A DNA stretch of 64,000 nucleotides from Candidatus Hadarchaeales archaeon (GCA_038736355.1 JAVYML010000001.1:180908-244907); one strand, 5' to 3'; shown: positions 1,895 to 62,960, numbered from the stretch's first letter. Notes: generated from the sequence alone by a model not told the origin. Numbers and translations are program-made.

Positions 1895-2949
1895 GTGAAT
1901 TTCCTAGCCGTTTCCAAGCCACCACGGCGGAGGTTCTTGATCAGTGCACTATCGGAAAGGAGCTTGAGGAGGACCTCCTTCAGGGAGGAAGGGTTGCCGG
2001 GTTCGAAGAAGAGGCAGTTGTAGCCCTCCCTGGCGAACTCTAGGATACCGCCAGCCCTGGGACAGACCACTGGTGTTCCCACCGCCATGGCCTCCACCGC
2101 CGCCAGACCGAAGGCCTCCAAAGAAGAGGGAAGGACAAAAACATCCGCACCCGCCATGAGCTTGGCCACCTCCGGATAGGGAAGGCGGCCGAGCATCTTT
2201 ACCCTACCCTTCAATCCCTCCCTCTCCACCTCCCTCCTCAACCTCCCCTCCTCCGGTCCTTCCCCTGCTATCACCAGCTTGACTCCGGGCACTTCCCTGC
2301 TCACTTCCTCGAAGGCTTTGAGGAGCAAGTAAGGTCCCTTCCTCTTCACCAACCTTATAGCCGTGGCCACCAACCTCTCTCCATCTCCCACACCCACCCT
2401 CCGCCTGAACTCCCTACCGTCCACTCCCTCATGGAAGAGGGAGAGATCCACACCGTTGGGGATTACCCTTATCTTCTCCTCCGGAACACCCAAGGAAAGA
2501 CAGAACTCCTTGGAAGCCCCGCTCACCGCCACCACCCTGCTTGCCCGCTTGAGGAAGGAGGAGAGGGGTAGGTAGGCGGCCTTCCAGAATCCGGAGGAGG
2601 AATGGACGGAATGACAAGTGAGGACGGAAGGTATTCCTTTCCCCCGAGCAAAACGGGAAGCCGCCAAGGCAAGGGAGGAATACATGTCCACTCCATGCAC
2701 CACCGAGAAGTCCCCCGAACGCAGATACCTCCGGAGCTCGGCGAAGGTGAAGGGGGAGAGGAAGCGATTTTTCACGGAAAAACCCTTCAAACCCCTCACC
2801 TCCACCCCCTCCCTCTCCTCCGCTCCTTCCCTCGTGAAGACCACCACCTCCACCCCCAGCTTGGAAAGGAAGGAACTCAGTTCAGCCGCATAGGTAGCCA
2901 CCCCTCCTGTCAGGGGAGGGTATTCATCACCCACGAGCGCCACCCTCAT
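1843..2949 (-). CDS. glycosyltransferase family 4 (GT-B fold)
   Basis: 368 aa; GT4 hallmark EAMAVGTPVV, N-term GGVATYAAEL, C-term E-x7-E region. Confidence 0.8.
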   Translation of the reverse strand: MRVALVGDEYPPLTGGVATYAAELSSFLSKLGVEVVVFTREGAEEREGVEVRGLKGFSVKNRFLSPFTFAELRRYLRSGDFSVVHGVDMYSSLALAASRFARGKGIPSVLTCHSVHSSSGFWKAAYLPLSSFLKRASRVVAVSGASKEFCLSLGVPEEKIRVIPNGVDLSLFHEGVDGREFRRRVGVGDGERLVATAIRLVKRKGPYLLLKAFEEVSREVPGVKLVIAGEGPEEGRLRREVEREGLKGRVKMLGRLPYPEVAKLMAGADVFVLPSSLEAFGLAAVEAMAVGTPVVCPRAGGILEFAREGYNCLFFEPGNPSSLKEVLLKLLSDSALIKNLRRGGLETARKFTWEKTAELTLRLYEEIA

Positions 2950-2978
2950 CTTCCGCCTCCCGAAGAGGAGAGGTGAAT

Positions 2979-4031
2979 TTAGCCTTTTTGACGTTTAAAG
3001 GAAGAAGGTCCTGCCAGACCGAGATAGGAAAGGGCCCCCGCCCCCACCAGCGTGCTCAGGAGGAGGGAAATGGTTCTCTCGAGCACCGTGGCCGCCACGG
3101 CCGTAGGCAGCGGCACCCTGAAGAAGGTGAAGACGGAGAGCATGGTGGCCTCCACCAGCACCAGCCCTCCCGGTAGGAAGGGGACTAGACCGGCTATGGT
3201 GGGGAGGGTGGTGGCCAGGAGGAGCATGGGGAGAGAGGGGTAGTATCCTAGGGAAAGGAAGATCAGGTAGAGCCTGAGGAGGTCCAAGGACCAGATGAAA
3301 AGGGAGAAGAGGAATAGGGAAAAAACACATCTCCAGTTGGAGAGCACGGAACTGGAGCTCCGGTACATCTCCCTAATGGAGGAGAATAAGTCCTTTTTCT
3401 TCCCCACCAACCTGCCCAAGCGATTCATCCATCTCCCCAACATCCTTGCCCCCACCTCCTTTTTCACCATTCCAAAGACTAGGGAAGGGGGGAAGAGGAG
3501 GAGGAAGAGCCATAGGAGGAAGAACCAGGGAAAGGAAAAGGGAAGGGAAACCCCAAACCAAAACCCGAACAGAAGGAAGGAAATCACGACGGGAAAATCG
3601 AAGAGATGATCCACCATCGTGGTGGAGATGGCGAAGGAATAGGGAATCCCCTTGAGCTTACCCAGCAAATAAACCCTTCCAAGGGGATCTGCTCCCCCCC
3701 TCAAGAAGGGGGTGATGTTGTTGATGAAGATGCTCCCCGAAAGGATCAAGTAGAGCTCTTTCAGGGTCACCCCAAAACCAAGATAGGAGAGGGAGACCCT
3801 CCATCTAAGGGCCCACAAGAAGATGCTTCCGAAGTATAGGGCCACCGCTGCCACAAACCATCGAATCCTCACCCTCCTGAGCATCCAAATCGCGGAGTAA
3901 AGGTCTTCCCTCCACCAAAGGAAGAGAAGGGAGAGGACCAGGAAGAGCAACAGGAAGAGGAGAACCCTTTTCCAGCTTTTTTTCATCCTCTCCATATTTA
4001 TCTCATCCCTAAAAACTGAAGAGTATGGCAT
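2979..4031 (-). CDS. polytopic membrane protein, flippase-like (lysyl-PG synthase TM-domain / UPF0104 family)
   Basis: 350 aa, about 8 predicted TM helices, conserved RxRW motifs (RVRIRWFVAAVALYFG, WALRWRVSL). Sits next to the GT4 gene. Confidence 0.5.
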   Translation of the reverse strand: MPYSSVFRDEINMERMKKSWKRVLLFLLLFLVLSLLFLWWREDLYSAIWMLRRVRIRWFVAAVALYFGSIFLWALRWRVSLSYLGFGVTLKELYLILSGSIFINNITPFLRGGADPLGRVYLLGKLKGIPYSFAISTTMVDHLFDFPVVISFLLFGFWFGVSLPFSFPWFFLLWLFLLLFPPSLVFGMVKKEVGARMLGRWMNRLGRLVGKKKDLFSSIREMYRSSSSVLSNWRCVFSLFLFSLFIWSLDLLRLYLIFLSLGYYPSLPMLLLATTLPTIAGLVPFLPGGLVLVEATMLSVFTFFRVPLPTAVAATVLERTISLLLSTLVGAGALSYLGLAGPSSFKRQKG

Positions 4032-5413
4032 CCGTTCTTTTCATTTACCCCCCCATAAGCTTCGAGGAGAGGAGTGCCCTCTCCGCCTACGCTCCTCCCC
4101 TGGGAATCCTCTACTTGGCCTCCATTCTCCAAAGGGCTGGACACAGGGTACAGGTGATAGATGCCGAGGCCGAGCACCTTTCCCTAAAGGAGCTGGGGGA
4201 AAGGATCGAGGAAGCAAGACCGGATGTGGTGGGCCTAACCTGTTTGACCCTTACGCTGGATTCATGCAAGAAGATCGTGAGGGAGGTCAAGAAGAGGTCC
4301 AAGGCCTACGTGGTGGTGGGCGGACCCCACATTTCCGTTTCCCCTCCCGAATACCTGAAGGAGATAGGGGCGGATGCCTATGTGATGGGGGAGGCGGAGG
4401 AAGAGATCCTCAGGATCGTGGAGGAAAGGCCCTCCGGGATCCTGCAGGTGAAGGAGCCCCAGGACCTCGATTCCCTCCCCCTTCCGGCCAGGGAATTGGT
4501 GAAACACGTCGAGTACGGCCAATTCTACGGAATGAAGATGATGGGGAAGATCACGGGAATCCTGACCTCGAGGGGATGTAGATACGGTTGCACCTACTGC
4601 AACCGTCCCAAGAAGCTTGGCTTCCGCTCCCGCTCTCCCCAGCAGATCTTGGAGGAGCTGAAGGTACTGGATAGGGAAGGTTTCGATTCCATCTGGATTG
4701 CCGACGACAACTTCACCAACGATCCCAAGAGGGTGATCAAGCTGGCGGACCTCATGAAGAGGGAGGGTTTGAAGTTCCACTTCTTCGGTCAGGCGAGGGT
4801 GGACACACCCAGCAAGGCCCTCTACAAGGCCATGAGGGAGATGGGGGTGCTGGCCCTGAGCTACGGTGTGGAGTCGGTGGTGCCCAAGGTGGTGAAATGG
4901 TATGGCAAAACCCCCCATCCCGAGCGCTGGCCCTACTACGTGAGGCGCACCCTAGACCTCTGCAAGGAATACGACATCATCTTCCTGGGAAGCCTGATCT
5001 TCGGGGCTCCCGTAGAGACCAAGGAGGACATGATACGCTCGATCGAATTCTTGGAGAAGGGGGGGGCGGACTTCATCAACGGAAACATCCTTCTCTACAT
5101 GGTGGGCTCGGCCATCTGGAACTGGGCTAGGAGGGAAGGAAAGCTGCGTCCGGACCAGTTCGTGGCCACCGCTCCCGAGCTGGGTCTCACCCCCTACTCG
5201 AAGGAGGAACTTCAGGAACTCTGCAACCGTTGCGCCGATTTCTCCAAGAGGGAGGGATGGAAGAGCGCCTTCAGGAAAATCCTGAGAAGGAAGGAGTTCG
5301 GGCTGATATGGATGGGTCTGAAGAAGTACGTGGGGGACTATCTGAAGATCAGGAAGGTCAGGAGGGAAATCTACGGGTATGGGTACGGAAAGAGATATAC
5401 CACCAGGATATGA
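4025..5413 (+). CDS. B12-binding domain radical SAM protein
   Basis: 462 aa; N-terminal B12-binding Rossmann region (VLFIYPP...GILYLASIL..VQVIDAE), radical SAM cluster motif SRGCRYGCTYCNRP. Confidence 0.8.
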   Translation: MASVLFIYPPISFEERSALSAYAPPLGILYLASILQRAGHRVQVIDAEAEHLSLKELGERIEEARPDVVGLTCLTLTLDSCKKIVREVKKRSKAYVVVGGPHISVSPPEYLKEIGADAYVMGEAEEEILRIVEERPSGILQVKEPQDLDSLPLPARELVKHVEYGQFYGMKMMGKITGILTSRGCRYGCTYCNRPKKLGFRSRSPQQILEELKVLDREGFDSIWIADDNFTNDPKRVIKLADLMKREGLKFHFFGQARVDTPSKALYKAMREMGVLALSYGVESVVPKVVKWYGKTPHPERWPYYVRRTLDLCKEYDIIFLGSLIFGAPVETKEDMIRSIEFLEKGGADFINGNILLYMVGSAIWNWARREGKLRPDQFVATAPELGLTPYSKEELQELCNRCADFSKREGWKSAFRKILRRKEFGLIWMGLKKYVGDYLKIRKVRREIYGYGYGKRYTTRI

Positions 5414-36512: not shown

Positions 36513-36638
36513 GGTGGTTGGCGGCGTCCTGGAGTTCCCGTCCGCTTCCGCAGGACAGTACAGTCCAGATCGCTGGCGGGCTTAACTTCCGGGATCGAAC
36601 GAGACCGGGTGTTTCCCCGCCGCTATGGCCGCCAACCA
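36513..36638 (-). rRNA. rrf: 5S ribosomal RNA
   Basis: Minus strand GGTTGGCGGCCATAGCGGCGGGGAAACACCCGGTCTCGTTCGATCCCGGAAGTTAAGCCCGCCAGCG...GGACGCCGCCAACC; universal 5S loop-C/helix-III motif CCCGGAAGTTAAGCC and a complementary helix I. Confidence 0.85.
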
Positions 36639-38169: not shown

Positions 38170-38260
38170 TGGTCCCGCGGGGGAGATTTGAACTCCCGAC
38201 TTGCCGGTCTCGGCCTTGGGTCTACAGCCGGCCGCTCTAACCAGGCTGAGCTACCGCGGG
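38170..38260 (-). tRNA. tRNA-Tyr(GUA) with 13-nt canonical (37/38) intron; C1:G72; CCA encoded
   Basis: Minus strand CCCGCGG-TA-GCTC-AGCCTGGTTA-GAGC-G-GCCGG-CTGTAG[ACCCAAGGCCGAG]A-CCGGC-AAGTC-GGGAG-TTCAAAT-CTCCC-CCGCGGG-A-CCA. The C1:G72 pair is the archaeal/eukaryal Tyr identity element. Confidence 0.8.
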
Positions 38261-43919: not shown

Positions 43920-44647
43920 AGCCCCTCACCTTCATCCTTCTATCTATCCTTCTTTAATCCTACCGTTTTGAAGGAAACGGGCTTTTCTAGGAAAAAGCGC
44001 CGAGAGAGCAGGGGTAAGGAAGGGATCCTCTTGCACCCCAGTACCACAAAACCCGACATGGACGAAACCGGAGAATATAAGGGCAATCTTCAGGATAGCC
44101 GAAACCTTCTAAGATTTCTGGCGAGAAGGATTGAGCCCCTTCTCCAACCGGAGTTTTCTTCGGTGGACTCCAAAGGGATCCCGACGAACTCCTACGGCAG
44201 GAAGAGGAGGGTCCTGGGGTAGAGAGGAAGAAGGTTTTCAAGCTCTGCGCTCGTCGGCTGCTCTCTTGAAGAGCCCTTTTCATCAAGCCTCTGTAACGGG
44301 AGAAAGTTGGCAAGACCTCACGCAGGTCGGATGCTGCTCGAAGCGACGGAAGACCACTTCTTGCGGACTCCACTTACGATCATCTCTCTCCCAGGCTTGC
44401 CAAGGACCGCGCGGGCTTGGGGATGGTTGGAAGCTTAGACCTGAACTTATAGACTGAAAAAGGTTGCGGAGGGGCTTTGCAACCAGATACCTTCCAAGGA
44501 TAAGATACCAGGCTCCTCACGCTCAGGAGTGCTCCATTCTCCTGATGGCCGTTGGGGGCTGCCAAGAACAAAATTAGAGGCTTGCTCAAACTAGCCCTAA
44601 ACTAATTTTTCGACAGACCTTTAAATTTAAATACCCCTGAAAGAGTT

Positions 44648-47600
44648 TTGTTTGTGCAAGCAAGAATTAAAAATGATAAGCTGAGCATCCTTTTTGCATT
44701 ACTTTTAATATCGCTTCTCTCCCTCTCTTCTCTGTTCTTGACTCTGTCCTCTGTGAGAACGGTTTCCGCATCTCCGGACCCACATGCTCCGATATACATA
44801 GAGGGGGATGGAAATTTCAAACCGGCAAACGGCGTTCGCAGTGGTTCTGGAACCAAAACCGATCCCTACATCATCGAGAACTGGGAAATCGATGCTTCCA
44901 ACGCCCACGGGATCCACATTAAAAACACCACCGCGTATTTCGTGATCAGAAATGTGCTGGTTGAGAACGGGAAGACTACTTACCATGGGATTTTTCTGGA
45001 AAATGTGGTCAACGGCAGGATCGAAAACGTGGTGAGCCGGAAAAACTCTAGAGGCATCTTTCTCTCTTACTCCAACAACATCCGCCTCTCAACCAACACC
45101 GTGGAGAACAACAAATACGGCATCTATCTCTACTGCTCCTCCAGAAACGAACTCTGGAACAATATCGTGAGGTACAACGAAAATGGCAACATCTATCTCC
45201 TCTCCTCCAACAACAACACCTTCTTCTCCCCCAACACCGCGGGAAACGGCAGATACGGCATCTACCTCCACTCCTCCGACAACAACACCTTCCTCGGCAG
45301 CACCGTGGAGAACAACAGATACGGCATCTATCTCTACCACTCCTCCAGAAACGAACTCTTGAACAATATCGTGAGGTACAACGAAAATGGCAACATCTAC
45401 CTCATCTCCTCCAACAACAACACCTTCTCCCACAACACGGTGAGGAATGGCGGGAGCATTTATCTCGACTTCTCCGACAACAACACCTTCTCAACCAATA
45501 CCGTGGAGAACACCTTCATAGGTATCCACCTCCACTCCTCCGACAACAACACCTTCTCAACCAATACCGTGGAGAACAACACCTACGGCATCTATCTAGA
45601 CAATTCCGGCAACAACACCCTCGCTAATAACACCGTGAAAAACAACCGGGGACATGGCATCCGTCTCGACTCCTCCGACAACAACATCCTCACCAACAAC
45701 ACCGTGGAGAACAGCGAGGAGGGCATCTACTTCCGCTCCTCCGACAACAACACCCTCACCAACAACACCATGAAAAACAACTGGTCGGAGGGCATCTATC
45801 TATACAACTCCGACAACAACACCCTCACCAACAACACCGTGGGAAACAACGGGTCGAAGGGAATCTATCTCAACTCCTCCGACAACAACACCTTCTCAAC
45901 CAATACCGTGGAGAACAACGCCCGTGGCATTTATCTCTATTACTCCTACAGAAACACCCTCTCAAACAACAAGGTGGAGAATAACTCTACAGGTATCTAT
46001 CTCGACTCCTCTGACAACAACACCCTCACCAACAACACCGTGGGAAACAACGGATCGGAGGGCATCTACCTCCGCTCCTCCGACAACAATACCCTCACCA
46101 ACAACAGGGTGGAGAACAACTTTATGGGTGTCTACCTCGTAGGCTCCTCTAATATCACAATGGACAACAACGTAATGAGGTCCAATCGCTGTAACTTCCT
46201 GGTATTCGGTGATAAGCTCTCGCACTTCATCCACGACATCGACAATACTAACACCGTGAACGGGAAGCCAGTCCTCTACTTAACCGGGACCGAGAACAAC
46301 CTCGTGATAAATCAGGATAACCGGGTAGGCTGGCTGGGTGTGGTAAATTCCAACAACATACAGGTGGAGAACCTCGTGGTCGAGACTGTTATGCTTGCGT
46401 TCACGCACAACACCAGGGTAGAGAATGTGATCGTCGAGAACTCATTAGTTGGCATCTATCTCTTCTCCTCCTCCAACAACTTCCTCTTAAATAACACCGT
46501 GGGGAACAACATGGAGGAAGGCATCCATCTCCACTCCTCCCACAACAACATCCTCTCAAACAACATCGTGAGGAACAACCAGTTGGGAATTGGAGTTGAG
46601 AATGGCAATCTGTTGGTTATTTCCCACAACGTTATTGAGAACAACTTGATCCGGGATATCGAATTTGATGGAAAAAATTCGGTTTTTGAGGCCAACGTCT
46701 ATACAACAGCAAGAGGCATTCCCCATATACATTCAGTTTGTGTTACAGACATCACGCAGACATCCGCAACGATAACCTGGGCTACCGATAAGAACTCAAC
46801 AAGTGTTGTCGAATACGGCCCAACAGCGGCATACGGATACACGGCCACGGACGGTGTGACGACCAACCATCGGGTGGACCTCTCCAACCTTTCACCCGGA
46901 ACCTATCACTTCCGCGTCCTTTCAACCGACAGCGAAAACAACCTCGAGATATCGGGGGACTTCACCTTCACGACGATTTCCCTACCAACATCCATAACGC
47001 TCGAACCATCCTCCTTCTCCCTGGTCTCAGGAGGTTCCAGGGAGATAACGGCCATCCTGAGGGACAACGGGGGAAACCCACTTTCCGGAAAGACGATATC
47101 GTGGAGCACAACCGCTGGAACAATAACCCAGACAAGCATGACGGACAATCTTGGGAGGGCAACCGCAACCTTCACGGCTCCCGTCGTCACGCAAATGGAG
47201 AATGTGACGATTACGGCAACCTTCGCGGGGGATGCCGGCTACGGGGGGAGTCAGGAAAATGCCTTATGTACGGTCTCTCCCGTTCCCTCCACCCCAACAA
47301 CCTTGACGGTTTCACCGTCAAGTTTCACCGTCAGAGTTGGCGGAAGGATAACCCTAACCGCAATCCTCTTGGATAACGCTGGAAATCCGCTCCCAGGAAA
47401 GCAGATAGTTTGGAGCACGACTTCCGGTTCGATTGAACCTATGATAGGTCTCACGGACAACCACGGGAGGATGGAGGTAACGTTTTTCGCACCATCGGTC
47501 AGCGGGTCCGTTGAAATCGGAGTTATTTTCCAGGGAGATTCAGTGCATGCCAGAAGCCAGGCGATAGGTGTGGGTACCGTGTCCCAGCCTCGACCGGGGA

Positions 47601-47680
47601 CCAGGCCATGGATTCCGGTAGCTGTGATCGTCATCATAGTCCTCCCCACTGTTTTCTTTTTCCTCAGGAGAAAGAGGTAA
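44648..47680 (+). CDS. large secreted/membrane-anchored surface protein: signal peptide, about 20 parallel beta-helix (PbH1) repeats rich in N-x-S/T sequons, FN3 domain, two Big-like Ig domains, C-terminal TM anchor + RRKR
   Basis: 1010 aa; N-terminus MFVQARIKNDKLSILFALLLISLLSL...; 22-aa repeats SSDNNTFSTNTVENNxxGIYLxx; FN3 SATITWATDKNSTSVVEYGPT; Ig-like LTVSPSSFTVRVGGRITLTAILLDNAGNPLPGKQIVWSTT; C-terminus PRPGTRPWIPVAVIVIIVLPTVFFFLRRKR. Lower GC than its neighbours; TTG/GTG start. Confidence 0.85.
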   Translation: MFVQARIKNDKLSILFALLLISLLSLSSLFLTLSSVRTVSASPDPHAPIYIEGDGNFKPANGVRSGSGTKTDPYIIENWEIDASNAHGIHIKNTTAYFVIRNVLVENGKTTYHGIFLENVVNGRIENVVSRKNSRGIFLSYSNNIRLSTNTVENNKYGIYLYCSSRNELWNNIVRYNENGNIYLLSSNNNTFFSPNTAGNGRYGIYLHSSDNNTFLGSTVENNRYGIYLYHSSRNELLNNIVRYNENGNIYLISSNNNTFSHNTVRNGGSIYLDFSDNNTFSTNTVENTFIGIHLHSSDNNTFSTNTVENNTYGIYLDNSGNNTLANNTVKNNRGHGIRLDSSDNNILTNNTVENSEEGIYFRSSDNNTLTNNTMKNNWSEGIYLYNSDNNTLTNNTVGNNGSKGIYLNSSDNNTFSTNTVENNARGIYLYYSYRNTLSNNKVENNSTGIYLDSSDNNTLTNNTVGNNGSEGIYLRSSDNNTLTNNRVENNFMGVYLVGSSNITMDNNVMRSNRCNFLVFGDKLSHFIHDIDNTNTVNGKPVLYLTGTENNLVINQDNRVGWLGVVNSNNIQVENLVVETVMLAFTHNTRVENVIVENSLVGIYLFSSSNNFLLNNTVGNNMEEGIHLHSSHNNILSNNIVRNNQLGIGVENGNLLVISHNVIENNLIRDIEFDGKNSVFEANVYTTARGIPHIHSVCVTDITQTSATITWATDKNSTSVVEYGPTAAYGYTATDGVTTNHRVDLSNLSPGTYHFRVLSTDSENNLEISGDFTFTTISLPTSITLEPSSFSLVSGGSREITAILRDNGGNPLSGKTISWSTTAGTITQTSMTDNLGRATATFTAPVVTQMENVTITATFAGDAGYGGSQENALCTVSPVPSTPTTLTVSPSSFTVRVGGRITLTAILLDNAGNPLPGKQIVWSTTSGSIEPMIGLTDNHGRMEVTFFAPSVSGSVEIGVIFQGDSVHARSQAIGVGTVSQPRPGTRPWIPVAVIVIIVLPTVFFFLRRKR
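45060..46150 (+). repeat. in-frame tandem 66-nt coding repeats (beta-helix rungs), several copies near-identical at the DNA level
   Basis: Recurrent ctcctccgacaacaacaccttctcaaccaataccgtggagaacaac and ...ccctcaccaacaacaccgtgg... units. Confidence 0.75.
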
Positions 47681-48186
47681 GGATGAAAATTGAAAGACCT
47701 CAAAAACAGTTTTTAACACTGACTGGATGATGGACTGAAGAGAATTACACGAAAAGGGAAATGATAAAAACACATTCGAGTCTGGCGTGACGATTTTTTA
47801 CGAAATTCATTTTGACAAAATCCGAAGAGGCTGAAGCTTTTATAAGGGCGATACCCCTCGATACAGAAGCGGAGCTTGAAAGGAGGTCTATTTTGAGGTA
47901 CCGTTTCGGGTAGCTTTTGAAAATTTAGACGAAAGGGTGAATTGGGTGATGTTGCTAGGCTGTATACTAAAATCCAAGGGAGGGACCGTGGGCTCAAAAG
48001 GGGGAAGTGGGACTCAACCTGAGGATCTGTGCTGAGATTGATGGCAGGGCAGGATACGGGAGCGAGTTAGCCGTTCTACCTCTCAAAATACGTCCTTTTT
48101 TCCTGAGAATCGAGGCGGAAAGTCTGAGCTCGAAGGAAACGAATAAAAAAAGCTGATTCAAAATAGGAAGGGTACAGAGGGAAAAG

Positions 48187-52044: not shown

Positions 52045-53160
52045 TTAAAAAGTAGGATAAATCTCATGCAGGAGTCTCTCCACCTTGGACCTTACCTCCT
52101 TCCTCCTTTCCTCCAGCTCCCTCAAAAAGTCCTTGGCCCTCTCCACCATTCCCTCCTTGCATTCTCCACAGATGATTTCCCCCTTCTCGCACCTTTCCTT
52201 CAACTCCAAGAGCTCCTTGTCCTCAGGCATGAAGTGGTACATACAGAGCTCGTATACCAGACACTTGGAAGGTTCCCCCCCCTTCTCCCTCTGCTCCCTG
52301 GCGGTCGGTCTTCCCCCCGTAAGGGCATCCCAAATCTTTCTCTCCCAAACCTCTGGGGGATCGGTGAGGAAAAGGGCCGAGTCCGGCCTACTGCTGGACA
52401 TCTTTCCCCCGAAGAGATCCCTCATCAACCTATGATAGGTGGAGGAAGGGGGAAGGAAACCATATTCTTCGGAAAATTTGGCCGCCACATCCCTCGCCAA
52501 TCTCAGATGCGGATCCTGATCCACACCCACGGGAACCACCGTGGGTCTGGGACCCCCAAACTTCTCCAGCTGGGGATGGAGGATGTCCGCCACATCTATC
52601 ATGGGATAGTAGAGATGGGAGAGATGTGTCTCTCCAGAAAAGCCGTAGATGGCCCTCACTTCGCTGAAGTTCACCTTCCTGGCCAGGCTGTAGGCCAAAC
52701 CCTGCACTTCCTGGCTCCTGGACTGGAAGTACACCCTGCACCTCTCCAATTCTAGGCCCAAAGCCTCGCAGTTCAACAAATATTCCTCAAACGCTATCTC
52801 CCTACCCTTCTCGTACGGGATGCCCCTAGCGGAGAAGGCCTCCATATCCGCTATGCAAAGGAAGATCTCCCCTCCCTTCCTTTGATACCAGACGAGCTGA
52901 TCCACCACCATCTTGTGCCCCAGATGCATCTTTCCACTCGGCATGAGCCCCGTCATGACCGCATACCTTCCGTTTCCAATCATCCTCTCGAGGACCCTTT
53001 CGAAGTCCCGATGTCCGAAGATTACTCCCCTCCTCATCAGGTGGAGGGGATCGGGGATTCTAGGGAGGAGTTCCTCCAAGGGTCTTATCCCGAATTCCTG
53101 CATGAGTCTGGAGTAGTCTTCGGGTAATCCCGTTCCCCAAGGATCCAGTTTCTCTGGCAT
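52045..53160 (-). CDS. trpS: tryptophanyl-tRNA synthetase (archaeal type)
   Basis: 371 aa; HIGH-type SGKMHLGH; KMSSS variant of KMSKS (typical of archaeal TrpRS). Confidence 0.85.
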   Translation of the reverse strand: MPEKLDPWGTGLPEDYSRLMQEFGIRPLEELLPRIPDPLHLMRRGVIFGHRDFERVLERMIGNGRYAVMTGLMPSGKMHLGHKMVVDQLVWYQRKGGEIFLCIADMEAFSARGIPYEKGREIAFEEYLLNCEALGLELERCRVYFQSRSQEVQGLAYSLARKVNFSEVRAIYGFSGETHLSHLYYPMIDVADILHPQLEKFGGPRPTVVPVGVDQDPHLRLARDVAAKFSEEYGFLPPSSTYHRLMRDLFGGKMSSSRPDSALFLTDPPEVWERKIWDALTGGRPTAREQREKGGEPSKCLVYELCMYHFMPEDKELLELKERCEKGEIICGECKEGMVERAKDFLRELEERRKEVRSKVERLLHEIYPTF

Positions 53161-53693
53161 TACGGTTTTTCCCTCCTGAGGGAGTAATAGGTCACATCCC
53201 CCTCATCGTCCACCACTGCAAAGAGCATGGTCTTCCTAACGGAGTGGGCCAGCCTCACCGCCCTCGCCAGCTCCGGGGGGGAGAGTCTTATTCCTTCCTT
53301 AATGGCATGCACCAAATACTTCGAATGGGCTTCCCCAGGTCTCTCCCCCCTATCGTAAACCCTGAAGTGGGCCCCAAACTTGAGCCCCGTTTTTACCACG
53401 TATCCCCTCGAGCGCAGGTCGGAATAAACGGCATACTTCAGCACCAGTTCCGGATCCAGTTTCGAGAACCTCTTACAAAGCTCCTCCCAGCCCAGCGGTT
53501 TCCCCGACTTTCCATCCACCGCTTCCGCCTTTCCATTCTCCACCAGATAGAGGACTTCCAGAGGGGAGAGCTGTAACTTGCCTCCGCTCAGGGGCTTTCC
53601 AAAGGCCCCCTTTTGGTAAAGCTGGTTGGCCTGGGCTTCCTCGAACACCATCCCCCTATCCCTGTATATTTTTACCTTCACCGGGGGCTCCAT
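53160..53693 (-). CDS. endA: tRNA-splicing endonuclease catalytic subunit
   Basis: 177 aa; YSDLRSRGYVVKTGLKFGAHFRVY...HSKYLVH catalytic motif region. Confidence 0.9.
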   Translation of the reverse strand: MEPPVKVKIYRDRGMVFEEAQANQLYQKGAFGKPLSGGKLQLSPLEVLYLVENGKAEAVDGKSGKPLGWEELCKRFSKLDPELVLKYAVYSDLRSRGYVVKTGLKFGAHFRVYDRGERPGEAHSKYLVHAIKEGIRLSPPELARAVRLAHSVRKTMLFAVVDDEGDVTYYSLRREKP

Positions 53694-57167: not shown

Positions 57168-60100
57168 CTAGCCGGGGAAAGGACAGGTCCTCGTGGGGCA
57201 TCCCCCCGCATACTCCGCTTCGGCCGCCACGAACTTCGCCTCCCTTCCTATGTAAAGCACCTGCTCCGGTTTGCTCCCATAGCGGAAAATCGTTACCCCC
57301 TTGCACTTGAGTCTCCAAGCTAGCTCGTAAACCCTTTCCACCTCCTCCACGGTGGCTTCAGAAGGAAGGTTGACGGTCTTCGAAACAGCGTTGTCGGTGT
57401 ATTTCTGGAAGGCGGCCTGCATCCTCACATGCCACTCGGGGGGGATGTCCAAGGCAGTGACAAAGATCCTCCTGAGGTCCTCCGGAACCCCTTCCACCCC
57501 GCGGAGGGATCCGGTCTTGGCTATTTCTTCGAGAAGCTTCGCACTGTAAAAACCCCTTTCCTTGGCCATGAGCTCGAAGAGGGGATGGATTTCGAAGAGC
57601 TTCCTTCCCCCCAGCACCTTCCTAATGAAAGAGAGGGCGAAGATGGGTTCTATCCCGGAAGAACATCCGGCGATGATGCTTATGCTCCCCGTCGGGGCTA
57701 TGGTGGTCACGGTGGCGTTCCGCATGGCCCCATACCTATCCTTCCAGATGCTCCTTTCGAAGTTGGGGAAGGAACCGCGCTTTTCGGCCAATTCCACCGA
57801 CTTCTTGCGTGCTTCTTCCGAGATGAAGCGCATCAATTTCTCCGCCAGCCTCAGTGCCTCCTCCGAATTGTAGGGGATACCCAATTTGATCAGCATATCG
57901 GCAAAACCCATGACCCCCAATCCTATCTTCCTGTTGGCCTTGGTGATTTCCTCTATCTCCCTGAGCGGGTACCTGTTGGCATCTATGACGTTGTCCAGGA
58001 AGTGAACGGCGCTTCTCACCGTCTTTCCCAGTTTCTCCCAGTTCACTTCTTTCCCCTCCACCATCCTCGAAAGGTTGATGGAGCCCAGGTTGCAGGATTC
58101 GTAGGGCAGGAGGGGCTGTTCCCCACAGTTATGCACACAGAAGCCGTTGGCATCGAAGAGGTTCACACCCGGGACCCTAACATCGAAGACCTCTTCTCGA
58201 CCCTTGAAGACAAGGCTTTCTACGGTGGCCAGGAAGCGTCCCCCCTCCATCCCCCCCTTGTAAAGGCTGAGAAGACGTTCCAAGCGTTCCCTTTTCTTCG
58301 GGTCTCCAAAGCCTATTTTCCGGGCGAAAACGAGGAGATCTTCCCCGGAAATAACCAGCTCGCGCACCCTTCCTTTGCGGATTTTCGAATATATCCCGAA
58401 CCTGAGGAGAATGCGCTGTACTGCCCTCAAAATCTCCAAGTTGCTCTGCACCAATCTCACACTAACACCCTTCCGTTTACTTCCCCGAACCGAACCATTG
58501 ACATCGAACAGTCCCCTAACCAAGCCCCTACAGAAGGCCGAAGAGGCCTTTTCCATCGGAACGGTGATCCTCCTTTCTCCTGGCCTCAGCCCCATTTCCC
58601 TCGCAAGTTTCTCCAAGGAATCTGATCCGTTGGGCAGTTTCTTCATACGGGCGTGGGTAAGGTCCTCCACCCTTCCCTCCTTCCCGTCGCCCAAGAAGAG
58701 ACCCACCAAATAGCCTTCCTCGAAGGTGAATTTTCCCTCCCAAGAAGTCACAACCCGGTTGCGGTTCAAAAGTACCTTATCCCCCCTCTCCAGTTTTCCC
58801 GCCGGTACCCACTCCATTTCCCTCGCGCATCCCGTCCTTCCCTTGACCCTGAGAACGGGATGATCCCATGTAAGACAAACCTCGAACCCTTCCCTCGTAA
58901 TCAGCCTGTAAACCGGCCTCACTCCAGTCCTGAAGAATCCCTCCTCCGTAGTTTCCCACTTCCCCCCATTCGCCACGACCACGAACTTTTTCCCGATGAG
59001 GTCCCTTACCTGTCTAGGTCCCTCTTCTGTCATGACCCAAGTGTAGACGGGCACACATGGGTTGGTAGCCTCTATCCTACCCACTCCAGGCGTGGGGTTG
59101 TGGCGGTTGATTTCGTCTATGAAGATCACTCCGGGATCTCCGCTCGCCCAGGCGGACTCTGCCATCAACTTCCAAACGCTCCTAGCCCTCAGTTTCTCCA
59201 CCCTCTCCCCGTTCCTGGGATTGATGAGCCAGTATTCCCCGTCCTCTTCCACCTTTTCCATGAACTCGTCCGTGACGGAGACGGAGAGGTTGAAGTTCTG
59301 TAGAAAGGTGTAATCCCTCTTACAGGTGATGAACTCCAGGATATCTGGATGGTCCACCCTAAGAATCCCCATCATGGCACCCCTTCTCCTCCCTCCCGCC
59401 TTGATGACCTCAGTTGTGATGTCGAAGATCCTCATGAAGCTTACCGGTCCCGAGGCCACACCCATCGTCGATTTCACCAGGTCCCCTTTGGGTCTGAGCC
59501 TGGAGAAGTCGAACCCCACACCCCCACCGCTCTTCTCTATGATGGCCATGTTCCTCACGGCCGTGAGAATACTTTCGAGGGAGTCTTCCACAGGAAGGAC
59601 GAAACAGGCGGAGAGCTGCCCCATTTCTGTCCCTGCGTTGAAGAGGGTAGGGGAATTGGGAAGGAACTCCAAACGCGCCATCATTCCGTAAAAGATTCGC
59701 TCGCTCTCCTCAGGATCCTCACCGTAGTTTCTATCTACCCCAGCTACGGCCTTCGCCACCCTTGAAAACATCTGCTGGGGTGTCTCGACGACTCTTCCCG
59801 TCTCATCCCTCAAAAGGTATCTACTGCGGAGGACCTCCAGGGCATTGACCGTAAGCTTGGGCTCGGGAATCCCGAGGCTCTGTCTCAACCTCCTTATCTC
59901 CTCTTTCTTCTCCCTGTACGATTGATATTCCTCCGCCACCCTTTCATAACCCCTCCTCCTCAGAACCTCCACAACCGCATCTTGGGCATCCTCCACGGAG
60001 GGTATCCTTTCCCTGAACCTCTCCTCCAGCATCCTTACCACCTCCCTGGTAACCTCCTCTGCTTTTTCCCCATCCTCCTGCTCCACGGCTATGAAGGCCC

Positions 60101-60191
60101 TATGAACGGCGTCCCTGATTTTGCTGGGATCGAAATCTACCAGCCTTCCGTCCCTCTTTTTTATCTTCTGAATTGGCATATCCAAAATCAT
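57168..60191 (-). CDS. nrdJ: ribonucleotide reductase, class II (adenosylcobalamin-dependent, NrdJ-like) with N-terminal ATP-cone and one intein
   Basis: 1007 aa; ATP-cone [16 protein letters not shown]; catalytic ATNP^[intein]^[19 protein letters not shown]; C-terminal Cys pair. Confidence 0.9.
58128..59057 (-). mobile_element. intein (310 aa) with LAGLIDADG homing-endonuclease domain inserted in the RNR active-site motif
   Basis: Begins Cys (NP|CVPVYT...), ends ...FCVHN|CGEQ; the C at +1 is the RNR cysteine of the NPCGEQ motif. LAGLIDADG blocks [13 protein letters not shown] and [12 protein letters not shown]. Boundary codons were verified on the sequence. Confidence 0.85.
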
Positions 60192-61097: not shown

Positions 61098-62960
61098 GTG
61101 GCCGAGGATTACCGAAGATGGGAAAGAAGGGTGAAGGGCAAATTTGGACCCATCAAGACCGGCGCCGTTTTAATCCTCTTTATCCTCCTCACAATCTCCT
61201 CGGGTTGGCTCTGGCTTCGCAGTCCTGGAAGGGAGGTACCCGCTCAGGGATTGATTAAGTTTTCCTCCGAAGCTGAATTTTTCCAGTACCTCTCCAAGTC
61301 ACAGGAATGGCTCAGCGGCTACTGGAGGATGGGGGGGTATCTCTTGGGGAAAACTCCTCTCTCACCCATCAGGGTCCTCGAAGGTAGTGGGGAGAGGGAG
61401 GAGGCCTCCAGAATCTCCGAAACCACGATACAAGTGAAGGGCATAGACGAGCCCGACATCGTGAAGACCAACGGTAGACACCTCTACTTCTCTGGCTACT
61501 GGAGCACGAAAATCATAAGGGCCTTTCCTCCCTCTGAACTTTCGGTGGTCTCCAGACTGGAGAGGAATGGAGAACTGCTCCTTCTGGAGAACCTGTTGAT
61601 CCTCCTCTCCCACGAGGGAATCACCGGCTACGACGTGTCCGATCCCTCCTCCCCAAGAGAACTCTGGAACGTGGAATTGAAAGCTGACCTAGTCTCAGCA
61701 CGTCTTTACCGGGGTAGGATTTATCTAGTCACCAGTACTCCGCTGGGAAGTCCAGTGTCCCTTCCCCTGCAGCCCCTTAAAGCCAAAGATACCGAGGTGC
61801 TGGTGAAAGCCACCGACATCTACCATCCACCCATTCCCATACCCGTGGACTCAGTCTACACGGCCTTTATCTTGAATCCGAGGGAGGGTAGAGTGGAGAA
61901 GAGCGTGAGCTTTGTGGGATACTCAGGCGCCTCGGTGGTCTACATGTCAAGGACTTCCCTCTACCTCGCCTACACTTCCTCTGCCTCGCTCGTCGAGACG
62001 TACTATCACTTCCTCTCCGGATGCCCAGACCTTGTTCCCGCGAACCTCATGAGGAAGGTGGAAAGGCTCATGGGTTACGATCTCAGCGATGCTGCCAAGA
62101 TGGTGGAGCTCGAGGTCCTGCTCTCCTCAGTAGACCTTCCCTGGGAAGAGCTGTGGAAAAGATGGGAAGGATATGTGGCTGAGAGGAAGAGGGAGCTCGA
62201 GACCACCCACATAGTGAAGATAGCGCTGGAAAACTTTGAAATCGTGGCCCAGGCCGAAGTTCCTGGAAGGCTGCTCAACCAGTTCTCTCTGGACGAGGAG
62301 GGCGGGTACCTGCGCCTCGCCACCACCGTGGAACCCTGGATGTTCCGATGGAAGGGGGAAAGCACCAACGACGTGTATGTCTTAGACCATGAACTGAAGG
62401 TGGTTGGCTCCCTTACGGATCTAGGTTCGGGGGAAGAAATCTATGCCGTGAGGTTCATAGGGGATAAGGGATACGTAGTAACCTTTAGGGAAACTGATCC
62501 CCTGCATGTGATCGACCTCTCCCATCCCTCCAAACCGGAAGTGGTGGGTGAGCTGAAGGTGCCTGGCTATTCTTCTTATCTACACCCCATAAACGATAAC
62601 CTCCTACTGGGAATAGGAAGGGAAAACTGGAAGGTGAAGGTCTCCCTCTTCGACCTCTCCTCCCCCTCCCAACCCATAGAGCTAGACAAGCTCCTCTTGG
62701 AGGAGTACTGGTCAGAGATCCTTGAAACGCACCACGCCTTCCTCCTAGACCCCGACCATGAGGTCTTCTTTCTACCGGCCTTTGGAAAGGGGTATGTGAT
62801 TTCCTATGGAGAAAAAGATTTGGAAGTGGTGAGGGTGGTGGAAAACCGTGCCGTGAGGAGAGCCGTCTATCTAGAGGACTACCTTTACGTGATTTCCGAA
62901 GAGAACCTAACCGTACTCAACGAGAGGACCTGGGAAATCGTGAACGAAATCGAGCTCTGA
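61098..62960 (+). CDS. membrane-anchored secreted beta-propeller protein (Beta_propel / PF09826-like)
   Basis: 620 aa, GTG start, N-terminal TM (AVLILFILLTISSGWLWL); C-terminal signature ETDPLHVIDLSHPSKPEVVGELKVPGYSSYLHPINDNLLLGIG. Confidence 0.65.
   Translation: MAEDYRRWERRVKGKFGPIKTGAVLILFILLTISSGWLWLRSPGREVPAQGLIKFSSEAEFFQYLSKSQEWLSGYWRMGGYLLGKTPLSPIRVLEGSGEREEASRISETTIQVKGIDEPDIVKTNGRHLYFSGYWSTKIIRAFPPSELSVVSRLERNGELLLLENLLILLSHEGITGYDVSDPSSPRELWNVELKADLVSARLYRGRIYLVTSTPLGSPVSLPLQPLKAKDTEVLVKATDIYHPPIPIPVDSVYTAFILNPREGRVEKSVSFVGYSGASVVYMSRTSLYLAYTSSASLVETYYHFLSGCPDLVPANLMRKVERLMGYDLSDAAKMVELEVLLSSVDLPWEELWKRWEGYVAERKRELETTHIVKIALENFEIVAQAEVPGRLLNQFSLDEEGGYLRLATTVEPWMFRWKGESTNDVYVLDHELKVVGSLTDLGSGEEIYAVRFIGDKGYVVTFRETDPLHVIDLSHPSKPEVVGELKVPGYSSYLHPINDNLLLGIGRENWKVKVSLFDLSSPSQPIELDKLLLEEYWSEILETHHAFLLDPDHEVFFLPAFGKGYVISYGEKDLEVVRVVENRAVRRAVYLEDYLYVISEENLTVLNERTWEIVNEIEL

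What the first reader, a model, noticed from the sequence alone, without database searches (positions are those of the whole stretch)
44648..47680. Giant N-glycosylation-sequon-dense parallel-beta-helix surface adhesin with C-terminal TM+RRKR anchor
Domain architecture:
- A 1010-aa protein with a Sec-type signal.
- About 20 consecutive PbH1-type beta-helix rungs of 22 aa, almost every one carrying NNT/NNS sequons (more than 40 N-x-S/T sites).
- A purple-acid-phosphatase-type FN3 domain.
- Two Big-like Ig domains.
- A C-terminal hydrophobic helix followed by RRKR, resembling archaeosortase/PGF-CTERM-type sorting signals without the canonical PGF.

Context and significance:
- This matches the 'adhesin-like protein' architecture known from methanogen cell surfaces.
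- Here it sits alone in a low-GC island of an otherwise GC-rich genome.
- It is likely a heavily N-glycosylated, strain-variable cell-surface or S-layer-associated adhesin.
- It could be a receptor for viruses or a mediator of cell-cell attachment.
Basis: partly seen in the sequence, partly recalled or inferred. Interest (0 to 1): 0.8.

Follow-up and report, generated by a model that had tools for sequence, protein, structure and literature searches.

The report
Membrane-anchored beta-helix surface protein, Hadarchaeales
This is an intact gene for an ordinary archaeal "adhesin-like" surface protein (a beta-helix rod on an Ig-domain stalk with a membrane anchor) from an uncultured Hadarchaeales archaeon; it is native to the genome, not a foreign island, and it has thousands of relatives.

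Summary
**Confirmed.** The ORF is real: 44648-47680(+), 1010 aa, uninterrupted.
- N-terminal signal-like helix
- right-handed beta-helix of 19 consecutive rungs of 22-23 aa, a conserved insert, then about 6 more rungs
- one purple-acid-phosphatase-N-type FN3 domain
- two Big_1 Ig domains
- a C-terminal TM helix ending in RRKR

Pfam, NCBIfam and an AlphaFold model (pLDDT 88.8) agree.

**Corrections.**
- There are 29 N-x-S/T sequons, not more than 40. This matches composition-preserving shuffles (30±5).
- The "low-GC island" is a composition effect. GC3 is 0.69, like the neighbours. Host codon usage predicts 0.511 GC for this protein; 0.501 is observed.
- The organism is a Candidatus Hadarchaeales archaeon, not a methanogen.
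- An identical protein is already in NCBI as "NosD domain-containing protein", with a start codon that removes the signal peptide.
- No PGF-, PEF- or Heimdall-CTERM model reaches its cutoff.
- At 1010 aa it is shorter than its relatives (median 1364 aa).

**Partly supported.** Strain variability: a second MAG shows 10/540 substitutions here against 1/1501 in ppsA plus EF-2, and a different rung sequence at the end of the repeat array.

**Verdict.** A new member of a known kind, probably a membrane-anchored adhesin or envelope protein. Glycosylation and function are untested. Low interest.

The parts
44620..44633 (+). TATA-box-like element TTTAAATTTAAATA, 15-28 nt upstream of the TTG start. This implies a leaderless or very short-leader mRNA.
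   Evidence: Sequence read and motif scan. The promoter function is inferred, not shown.
44648..47680 (+). Complete CDS, 1010 aa plus stop. Start is TTG 44648, or GTG 44654 two codons later.
   Evidence: In-frame stop at 44603. The NCBI copy P0001 starts at GTG 44753 and lacks the signal peptide.
44648..44770 (+). Signal peptide or signal anchor, aa 1-41. Basic n-region (R6, K8, K11), h-region L12-L33, V-S-A at positions -3 to -1 before S42.
   Evidence: Hydropathy. AF2 helix 5-33. 90 of 120 homologues have an N-terminal hydrophobic segment. P0006 has a signal peptide directly before the same conserved cap. Cleavage is inferred.
44771..44908 (+). N-terminal cap of the beta-helix, aa 42-87 (PIYIEGDGNF..GSGTKTDPYIIENWEIDAS), conserved in homologues.
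44909..46192 (+). Right-handed parallel beta-helix, block 1, aa 88-515. 19 rungs of 22-23 aa with consensus GIYLxSSDNNTLTNNTVxNNxx. Carries 25 of the 29 sequons.
45190..46120 (+). DNA-level tandem array inside block 1. Period 66 nt x 13.9 copies, with a 135-nt two-rung super-repeat. The best internal duplicate is 87% identical (45053-45224 vs 45257-45428).
   Evidence: Other assemblies break inside it.
46193..46330 (+). Conserved insert, aa 516-561 (..FGDKLSHFIHDIDNTNTVNGKPVLYLTGTENNLVINQDN..), a family hallmark between the two helix blocks.
   Evidence: Consensus IDxxNxVNxxPxxY in alignment A1. Present once or twice in homologues. AF2 short helix 524-527 plus hairpin.
46331..46717 (+). Beta-helix block 2, aa 562-690, about 6 rungs.
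46718..46981 (+). FN3-like domain of the purple-acid-phosphatase N-terminal type, aa 691-778. No phosphatase catalytic domain follows.
   Evidence: Pfam PF16656 at 30.8 bits (cutoff 30) and fn3 at 17.5 bits. AF2 beta-sandwich 694-775.
46982..47287 (+). Big_1 (intimin/invasin-type) Ig-like domain 1, aa 779-880.
   Evidence: Pfam Big_1 and Invasin_D3. AF2. Foldseek matches to intimin D0-D1, FdeC, SiiE and LigA.
47288..47587 (+). Big_1 Ig-like domain 2, aa 881-980.
47588..47677 (+). Linker SQPRPGTRPW, TM helix IPVAVIVIIVLPTVFFFL, and cytoplasmic RRKR at the extreme C-terminus, aa 981-1010.
   Evidence: Hydropathy peak 2.74 at aa 988. AF2 helix 992-1008. CTERM HMMs fall below their cutoffs. Tail comparison.
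47710..47714 (+). T5 tract 30 nt after the stop codon, a possible archaeal oligo-T terminator.
   Evidence: Sequence read. Function is inferred.

Best explanation
The gene encodes a native, monocistronic cell-surface protein of a probably hyperthermophilic Candidatus Hadarchaeales archaeon.

**Proposed mechanism** (shown or inferred marked at each step)
1. Transcription starts from a TATA-like box just upstream, giving a leaderless-type mRNA (inferred).
2. The N-terminal signal sequence drives Sec-dependent export (inferred from sequence).
3. The last 25 residues form a single TM helix. Its RRKR cluster stays in the cytoplasm under the positive-inside rule, so the protein is a type-I membrane protein (predicted helix shown, topology inferred).
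4. Outside the cell, two Big_1 Ig domains and one FN3 domain form a membrane-proximal stalk. They hold out a rod of about 25 beta-helix rungs, roughly 12 nm long, with an N-terminal cap (fold shown by HMMs and the AF2 model; geometry inferred).
5. The rod has no conserved catalytic residues. It most likely acts as a binding or structural surface: an adhesin-like or envelope protein that contacts glycans, other cells or surfaces.
6. Each rung carries up to two NNT motifs. The second Asn is the structural Asn also present in bacterial NosD. The first Asn and the Thr would alternate outward. Two ladders of potential AglB N-glycosylation sites therefore run along the rod. Whether they are used is unknown.
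7. The rung array evolves by tandem duplication and differs between strains.
For: - **Intact ORF and start context:**
- **Domain HMMs far above cutoff:** Beta_helix 318.8 bits against a cutoff of 25.9; NosD 288 against 23.6; Big_1 69.1 against 34.9. TIGR03804 hits in 13 stretches.
- **AF2 model:** pLDDT 88.8, with the order helix, 3-strand rungs, FN3, two Ig domains, terminal helix.
- **Hydrophobic segments:** only two, one at each terminus.
- **Homologues:** 90 of 120 have an N-terminal hydrophobic segment and 50 of 120 pass a C-terminal hydrophobic-segment test.
- **No conserved catalytic residues:** the 30 invariant or near-invariant columns in a 30-sequence alignment are all G, I, N, S or L. 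No DPH[DE], NTD or W[IV]DH signatures occur. The single G[DH]G, RIK and DPH matches lie in the N-terminal cap, the signal peptide or one lone rung.
- **Native origin:** GC3 and codon usage match the host. Neighbours are housekeeping genes, and the gene keeps its position upstream of ppsA in a second MAG.
- **Sequon positions:** the acceptor Asn sits at fixed rung offsets, 8 (12 sites) and 13 (6 sites). NosD keeps only the second Asn (GNHL, DNRI, GNVI).
- **Strain divergence:** 10/540 substitutions against 1/1501 in the neighbours, Fisher p = 1.3e-5. The rungs at aa 426-470 also differ.
- **Architecture precedent:** PMC11532034 describes beta-helix plus Big domains plus a terminal TM helix.
Against: - There are no experimental data for expression, localisation, glycosylation or binding.
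- The fold is shared by many polysaccharide lyases, hydrolases and epimerases. Alignments of repeat proteins are unreliable, so a catalytic site could be missed.
- The h-region of the signal peptide is long (about 22 aa). It might be an uncleaved signal anchor.
- A tail that ends exactly at the basic cluster is also the geometry of sortase-type sorting signals.
- The repeat copy number may be an assembly artefact. One rung (aa 428-443) is looped out with low confidence in the model.
Confidence: 0.6

Rival explanations
1. The C-terminal tail is a sorting signal of the archaeosortase type (signature motif, TM helix, Arg cluster). A membrane-embedded protease would remove the helix and replace it with a lipid anchor. 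The mature protein would then be a lipid-anchored, glycosylated S-layer or S-layer-associated protein.
For: - The tail has the tripartite geometry and ends exactly at RRKR. This is the defining layout described by Haft (bioRxiv 10.1101/2023.06.07.544157).
- Methanosarcinales homologues of the same family carry genuine PGF-CTERM tails: P0036, P0055, P0094, P0116 and P0120.
- The closest clade shares a W-x-P motif abutting the TM helix: RPWIP, TAWSP, TPWAP, RWTP.
- PEF-CTERM and Heimdall-CTERM give weak hits.
Against: - All CTERM models fall below their cutoffs, and they match only the TM-plus-basic part of the profile.
- Several close homologues continue 5-28 residues past the basic cluster: P0003, P0006, P0007, P0031 and P0209. 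That fits a plain TM anchor.
- The Hadarchaeales homologue P0031 has an unrelated tail.
- No other protein in the window carries such a tail.
- No archaeosortase appears in the window or in 10 kb beyond its left end. This is a weak test, because most of the genome was unseen.
Confidence: 0.12
2. The beta-helix is a catalytic domain (polysaccharide lyase, glycoside hydrolase or epimerase) displayed on the cell surface. It would degrade or remodel extracellular polysaccharide for a heterotrophic archaeon.
For: - There are weak sequence hits to AlgG and to Pect-lyase_RHGA_epim.
Against: - AlgG NF038177 scores 30 bits against a cutoff of 700. PF12708 scores 25.6 against 27.
- No DPH[DE], NTD or W[IV]DH motifs occur, and the single G[DH]G and RIK matches lie outside the rung array or in one lone rung.
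- The conserved columns are only G, I, N, S and L.
- The rungs are highly idealised and recently duplicated, which is typical of structural or binding rods.
- No sugar-uptake or CAZyme genes are adjacent.
Confidence: 0.12
3. The locus is a horizontally acquired low-GC island or a prophage remnant (a tailspike-like receptor-binding protein).
For: - GC dips to 0.49-0.50.
- More distant homologues sit in unrelated gene contexts.
Against: - GC3 is 0.69 and per-codon usage matches the host. The expected GC for this protein under host codon usage is 0.511, against 0.501 observed.
- The flanks are nadC-like, SepCysS-like, Asp dehydrogenase, ppsA, ribosomal protein and EF-2 genes.
- There are no integrase, tRNA-flank or phage genes.
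- The same position upstream of ppsA is kept in a second MAG.
Confidence: 0.03
4. It is a true NosD, the periplasmic component of the NosDFY system that matures nitrous-oxide reductase.
For: - The NCBI name is "NosD domain-containing protein".
- Pfam NosD scores 4.9e-86.
- The best solved-structure sequence hit is NosD 7o0y.
Against: - TIGR04247 NosD_copper_fam scores 167 bits against a cutoff of 300.
- At 1010 aa with an Ig stalk and a TM anchor, the protein is unlike the roughly 400-aa NosD.
- No nosZ, nosF or nosY genes lie nearby.
Confidence: 0.01

Closest known systems
Archaeal adhesin-like proteins (ALPs) of Methanobrevibacter and Methanosphaera (right-handed beta-helix plus archaeal Big domains plus membrane-anchoring helix; PMC11532034, PMC2812497)
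   Same: - N-terminal right-handed beta-helix repeats followed by Big/Ig-like domains, with a terminal TM helix.
- Asn-rich, idealised rungs.
- Multi-rung expansion by duplication.
- Function inferred rather than shown for nearly all members.
   Different: - The host is a Hadarchaeales archaeon, not a gut or rumen methanogen.
- The anchor is C-terminal. In the methanogen set it is N-terminal in most members.
- An FN3 domain of the purple-acid-phosphatase N-terminal type sits between the helix and the Ig domains.
- Only a single copy is seen in 64 kb. The published methanogen genomes hold dozens.
Pfam PF13229 Beta_helix / PF05048 NosD / TIGR03804 parallel beta-helix repeat proteins of archaea (at least 3041 hits, from Thermoplasmata, Methanosarcinales, Helarchaeota and Hadarchaeales)
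   Same: - The same rung consensus (GIxLxxSxNNTLxNNTxxNN).
- The same N-cap and the same IDxxNxVNGKPxxYL insert.
- The closest full-length relatives are 37-42% identical and have the same FN3 plus Big_1 module.
   Different: - It is shorter than most relatives.
- It lacks the extra roughly 200-aa domain that P0003-P0011 carry between the Ig domains and the TM helix.
- The tail motif is RPWIP rather than PGF.
PGF-CTERM / archaeosortase A substrates (for example the Haloferax volcanii S-layer glycoprotein)
   Same: - Secreted and probably glycosylated surface protein.
- The extreme C-terminus is a hydrophobic helix followed by an Arg/Lys cluster.
   Different: - There is no PGF motif and no TIGR04126 hit.
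- The PEF-CTERM and Heimdall-CTERM scores fall below cutoff.
- No archaeosortase has been identified.
Bacterial beta-helix adhesins and Ig-stalk adhesins (PfbA, pertactin/autotransporter passengers, intimin/invasin, FdeC)
   Same: - The Big_1 Ig tandem resembles the intimin, invasin and FdeC stalks.
   Different: - Sequence identity is only 11-18%.
- The anchoring mode differs: a TM helix rather than LPXTG, a beta-barrel or an inverse autotransporter.
- Here the beta-helix is distal and the Ig domains are proximal to the membrane.

Membership tests
Right-handed parallel beta-helix repeat proteins (PF13229 / TIGR03804) | Repeated PbH1-type rungs scoring above the curated cutoffs | tested here: met
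   PF13229 scores 318.8 bits (cutoff 25.9) in 6 stretches. TIGR03804 scores 317.7 bits (cutoff 19.45) in 13 stretches.
Right-handed parallel beta-helix repeat proteins (PF13229 / TIGR03804) | Three-stranded right-handed beta-helix fold | tested here: met
   [not shown]
NosD proper (TIGR04247, N2O-reductase maturation) | Score above the subfamily cutoff (300 bits) | tested here: not met
   167.3 bits.
NosD proper (TIGR04247, N2O-reductase maturation) | Genomic association with nosZ, nosF and nosY | tested here: not met
   Neighbours within about 10 kb on each side are housekeeping genes.
Archaeal adhesin-like proteins (ALP architecture, PMC11532034) | Beta-helix domain followed by Big/Ig-like domains, with a terminal membrane-anchoring helix | tested here: met
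   The anchor here is C-terminal, which is the minority arrangement in the published set.
Archaeal adhesin-like proteins (ALP architecture, PMC11532034) | Demonstrated adhesion to a partner cell or substrate | not testable with these tools
   This needs binding assays with the recombinant ectodomain.
PGF-CTERM / archaeosortase A substrates | PGF signature motif abutting the TM helix (TIGR04126 hit) | tested here: not met
   No TIGR04126 hit even at E <= 10 on the isolated tail. The sequence reads RPWIP, not PGF.
PEF-CTERM (ArtC) and Heimdall-CTERM sorting domains | Score above the curated cutoff, including the signature motif | tested here: not met
   PEF-CTERM scores 14.2 against 23 (profile positions 8-24 only). 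Heimdall-CTERM scores 12.5 against 24 (positions 8-25 only).
Generic tripartite C-terminal sorting signals (Haft criteria) | Location at the extreme C-terminus, with a TM helix and then an Arg-rich cluster | tested here: met
   ...IPVAVIVIIVLPTVFFFLRRKR followed by the stop codon.
Generic tripartite C-terminal sorting signals (Haft criteria) | Multiple occurrences per proteome and co-occurrence with a dedicated processing enzyme | tested here: inconclusive
   Only one such tail occurs among about 55 window ORFs. No sortase-like gene appears in the window or in 10 kb beyond its left end. The rest of the 460-kb contig and the genome were not available.
Purple acid phosphatase | N-terminal FN3-like domain together with a metallophosphatase catalytic domain | tested here: not met
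   Only PF16656 is present, at 30.8 bits (cutoff 30). No Metallophos domain is found.
Alginate C5-epimerase AlgG/AlgE | Equivalog score and the DPH[DE] catalytic motif | tested here: not met
   NF038177 scores 30.3 bits against a cutoff of 700. No DPH[DE] motif occurs. The similarity is at fold level only.
N-glycoprotein (AglB substrate) | Occupied N-x-S/T sequons | not testable with these tools
   29 sequons are present. Occupancy needs glycoproteomics. No AglB gene was seen in the 64-kb window or its left flank.

The most novel reading that the evidence does not exclude
The W-x-P motif, TM helix and Arg cluster shared by this protein and its closest clade (RPWIP, TAWSP, TPWAP, RWTP) could be an undescribed C-terminal sorting signal. 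It would be processed by an unrecognised archaeosortase-like or intramembrane protease in Hadarchaeales-related archaea.

The two in-register ladders of outward-facing NNT sequons could also be fully glycosylated. That would sheathe and stabilise a 15%-Asn rod at a growth temperature of about 85-90 °C, in a proteome that otherwise holds only 1.9% Asn.
Probability: 0.08. Interest if true: 0.5.

Novelty: new member of a known kind. Interest (0 to 1): 0.2.

Why it matters
No cell-envelope protein of the uncultured Hadarchaeales has been characterised. Searches for Hadarchaeota with S-layer or archaeosortase found no relevant study. This protein is therefore a reasonable candidate surface marker or adhesin for that lineage.

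Two practical points follow:
- The public record starts 35 codons too late and hides the signal peptide.
- The GC dip is a worked example of a composition artefact that mimics a genomic island.

Beyond that, the architecture is common (at least 3041 relatives) and teaches nothing new about mechanism.

Tried and rejected
- **Genome-contig scan** with aa 500-1010: 38 pattern matches, none confirmed by tblastn.
- **Exact-sequence lookup of P0001:** not on record. The last window gene is also not on record.
- **Second word-indexed protein search** with the C-terminal 321 aa: only 17 short hits and none of the true relatives.
- **Exhaustive representative search** with the same query: swamped by giant proteins with many copies of the FN3 domain. 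It was useful only for a tail survey.
- **Walk 10 kb beyond the left end of the window:** no archaeosortase or AglB.
- **Pre-TM domain of the longer homologues:** tested as a possible PGF-pre-PGF domain, with no NCBIfam hit.
- **Rfam and tRNA scans:** nothing in the long flanking intergenic regions.
- **Contexts of the 40%-identical homologues P0004 and P0006:** unrelated to this locus, with no conserved partner genes.
- **Haft 2012 (PMC3256604):** not held in the library.
- **Ideas considered and dropped:** an ice-binding TxT/TxN surface (the organism looks hyperthermophilic), a prophage tailspike (housekeeping context), and NosD function (no nos genes).


Full report

The ORF at 44648-47680(+) is open for 1010 codons. 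An in-frame TAA lies at 44603. The first possible starts after it are TTG 44648 and GTG 44654. A TATA-like TTTAAATTTAAATA lies at 44620-44633, 15-28 nt upstream, which fits a leaderless archaeal mRNA.

Hydropathy finds only two hydrophobic segments, aa 10-37 and aa 984-1009. The N-terminus has a basic n-region, a 22-aa h-region and V-S-A before S42. The C-terminus reads ...RPWIPVAVIVIIVLPTVFFFLRRKR followed by the stop codon.

Domain searches give:
- Pfam Beta_helix 6.4e-96, NosD 4.9e-86, Big_1 in two stretches (3.7e-19), and Pur_ac_phosph_N just above its cutoff (30.8 against 30 bits).
- NCBIfam TIGR03804 parallel-beta-helix repeats in 13 stretches.

Laying out the rungs gives 19 consecutive units of 22-23 aa (aa 88-515), then a roughly 45-aa insert, then about 6 further rungs.

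**2.

*Sequons.* There are 29 N-x-S/T sites, not more than 40. Shuffles of the same composition give 30.3 ± 4.7. The reversed motif occurs 42 times. The density (28.7 per 1000 aa) is about 16 times that of the other window ORFs (1.8 per 1000). It is below the median of 120 homologues (34.3 per 1000). The sequons come from the repeat consensus SxNNTLxNNT, which is shared across the family.

*Low-GC island.* The GC dip is real (0.50 against 0.56 for the window), but several results explain it:
- GC3 of the gene is 0.69, the same as the neighbours (0.68-0.73). Only GC1 is low, at 0.41.
- Per-codon usage matches the rest of the window. Encoding this amino-acid sequence with the host's codon usage predicts 0.511 GC, against 0.501 observed.
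- The dip is therefore a consequence of 15% Asn plus abundant Ser, Thr, Ile and Tyr, not of foreign origin.
- The flanks are core genes: nadC-like, a SepSecS/SepCysS-family protein, aspartate dehydrogenase, PEP synthase, an arginase-fold protein, a ribosomal protein, an aminoacyl-tRNA synthetase, EndA, EF-2 and RNR.
- A second MAG (GCA_038863995.1) has the gene at the same position upstream of PEP synthase. Its contig starts inside the gene, so the upstream side is not seen.

*Organism.* An identical protein is in NCBI as [quoted passage not shown]. This is not a methanogen record. That record starts at GTG 44753 (975 aa) and so omits the signal peptide. Three observations favour the upstream start: homologues such as P0006 carry a signal peptide directly before the same conserved cap, 90 of 120 homologues have an N-terminal hydrophobic segment, and the TATA-like box is correctly placed.

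*Giant.* Homologues have a median length of 1364 aa.

**3. Structure**

An AlphaFold2 model built on a 30-sequence alignment has mean pLDDT 88.8 and pTM 0.69. From N- to C-terminus it shows:
- helix 5-33
- three short strands per rung from about aa 44 to 690
- a short helix and hairpin in the insert
- an FN3-like sandwich (aa 694-775)
- two Ig-like sandwiches (aa 781-877 and 884-979)
- a terminal helix (aa 992-1008)

One rung (aa 428-443) is looped out at low confidence, probably an alignment artefact.

**4. Enzyme or binding/structural rod?**

- The 30 invariant or near-invariant alignment columns are all G, I, N, S or L, that is, repeat-structural residues. None is D, E, H, K, R or Y.
- The motifs of AlgE/AlgG (DPH[DE]), GH28 (NTD) and PL1 (W[IV]DH) are absent. 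Single matches to G[DH]G, RIK and DPH lie in the N-terminal cap, in the signal peptide or in one lone rung.
- Equivalog-level models fail: AlgG 30 against 700 bits, NosD subfamily 167 against 300, and PF12708 25.6 against 27.
- No nos genes, CAZymes or sugar transporters are adjacent.
- More distant homologues sit in unrelated contexts with no conserved partner.

I therefore favour a non-catalytic surface rod. The alignment of a repeat protein is weak evidence, so I give the enzyme reading 0.12.

**5. The NNT motifs**

In each rung (G-I-Y-L-x-S-S-D-N-N-T-L-T-N-N-T-V-x-N-N-x-x), the sequon acceptor is the first Asn of each NN pair. It sits at offset 8 (12 sites) or offset 13 (6 sites) from the rung Gly.

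Aligned to bacterial NosD (7o0y), only the second Asn is conserved (GNHL, DNRI, GNVI, GNAF). The first Asn and the Thr are not. From strand alternation, the second Asn would point inward as an Asn ladder, and the first Asn and the Thr would point outward. This is an inference: I could not read the model coordinates.

Two in-register ladders of potentially accessible sequons therefore run along the rod. Glycosylation is plausible but unproven.

Context: the other window proteins contain 1.9% Asn. Their IVYWREL fraction (0.452) gives a rough optimal growth temperature of about 88 °C by the Zeldovich relation (the relation is cited from my own knowledge). A 15%-Asn surface protein is compositionally extreme for this organism, although it is normal for its family.

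**6. The C-terminal tail**

No PGF-CTERM hit is found. On the isolated tail at E <= 10, PEF-CTERM scores 14.2 (cutoff 23) and Heimdall-CTERM 12.5 (cutoff 24). Both match only the TM-plus-basic part of the profile.

The generic tripartite layout (motif, TM helix, Arg cluster at the very end) defined by Haft is met in geometry. Some Methanosarcinales homologues have true PGF-CTERM tails. The nearest clade shares a W-x-P motif next to the helix (RPWIP, TAWSP, TPWAP, RWTP).

Against a sorting signal:
- Several close homologues extend 5-28 residues beyond the basic cluster.
- The other Hadarchaeales homologue (P0031) has an unrelated tail.
- No other window protein has such a tail.
- No archaeosortase was seen in the window or its left flank.

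A plain type-I TM anchor is the best reading. Sortase-like processing gets 0.12.

**7. Variability**

The helix contains a DNA-level tandem array: 66-nt period x 13.9 copies, with a 135-nt two-rung super-repeat. The most recent internal duplicate is 87% identical over 172 nt.

Against GCA_038863995.1, PEP synthase is 770/771 identical and EF-2 is 730/730 identical. The surface protein has 10 substitutions in aa 471-1010 (Fisher p = 1.3e-5). One of them, N716D, removes a sequon. The rung sequence at aa 426-470 also differs. This supports faster evolution and repeat turnover.

Both that MAG and an independent Logan assembly of SRR27730027 break inside the array. The Logan contig is 100% identical to the window from 46024 onward. 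The rung count in the window is therefore unverified.

**8. Comparison with known systems and verdict**

The architecture (beta-helix, then Big/Ig domains, then a terminal membrane helix) is the most common one described for archaeal adhesin-like proteins (PMC11532034). The sequence family has at least 3041 members across Thermoplasmata, Methanosarcinales, Asgard archaea and Hadarchaeales.

Differences here:
- the Hadarchaeales host
- a C-terminal rather than N-terminal anchor
- an intercalated FN3 domain of the purple-acid-phosphatase N-terminal type
- the absence of the extra pre-TM domain found in the closest full-length relatives

The protein is not NosD, not a PGF- or PEF-CTERM protein, not a purple acid phosphatase and not an alginate epimerase, each by a failed defining test.

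It is a new member of a known kind. Interest is low (0.2). The useful by-products are the corrected start codon and the demonstration that the "island" is a composition artefact.

Noticed in passing
window 44648-44753: The public NCBI record of this protein (P0001, 975 aa) starts at GTG 44753. It therefore lacks the 35 N-terminal residues that form the signal peptide. TTG 44648 or GTG 44654, preceded by a TATA-like box, is the more plausible start.
   Followed up: yes
window 38173-38260 (-): Rfam calls a tRNA here (56.6 bits) that spans 88 nt for a 71-position model, while ARAGORN finds no tRNA anywhere in the window. It is probably an intron-containing archaeal tRNA. The tRNA-splicing endonuclease gene lies at 53160-53693(-).
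   Followed up: no
window 36516-36636 (-): A stand-alone 5S rRNA gene (98 bits), not adjacent to 16S or 23S rRNA genes within the window.
   Followed up: no
window 57168-60191 (-): The ribonucleotide reductase large subunit (1007 aa) carries intein-splicing and LAGLIDADG homing-endonuclease Pfam hits.
   Followed up: no
window 61098-62960 (+): A second predicted envelope protein: 620 aa, Beta_propel PF09826 at 3e-105, with an N-terminal hydrophobic anchor or signal and no C-terminal TM tail.
   Followed up: partly
L003 16579-21107 (about 3.6-8 kb beyond the left end of the window): Two adjacent ORFs have N-termini of the form ...GVAFAHW(T/S).. and one gives a BACON_2 hit. They are followed by a 632-aa hydrophobic protein and a DUF5305 protein. 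This looks like a TasA/camelysin-style secreted-fibre cluster.
   Followed up: no
window 1157-5413: A cluster of a GT4 glycosyltransferase (1843-2949), a polysaccharide deacetylase, an LPG_synthase_TM-family membrane protein (2979-4031) and a B12-binding radical SAM enzyme (4025-5413). It may be glycan or lipid modification machinery. No link to the surface protein was tested.
   Followed up: no
window ORFs overall: The proteome composition of the window (IVYWREL 0.452, Asn 1.9%, Glu+Lys+Arg 22%) suggests a hyperthermophile. The rough optimal growth temperature estimate is about 88 °C.
   Followed up: partly
window 46024 and about 45925: Two independent assemblies of this locus (Logan SRR27730027 and GCA_038863995.1) both end inside the 66-nt repeat array. 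The rung count in the window's assembly is therefore unverified.
   Followed up: partly
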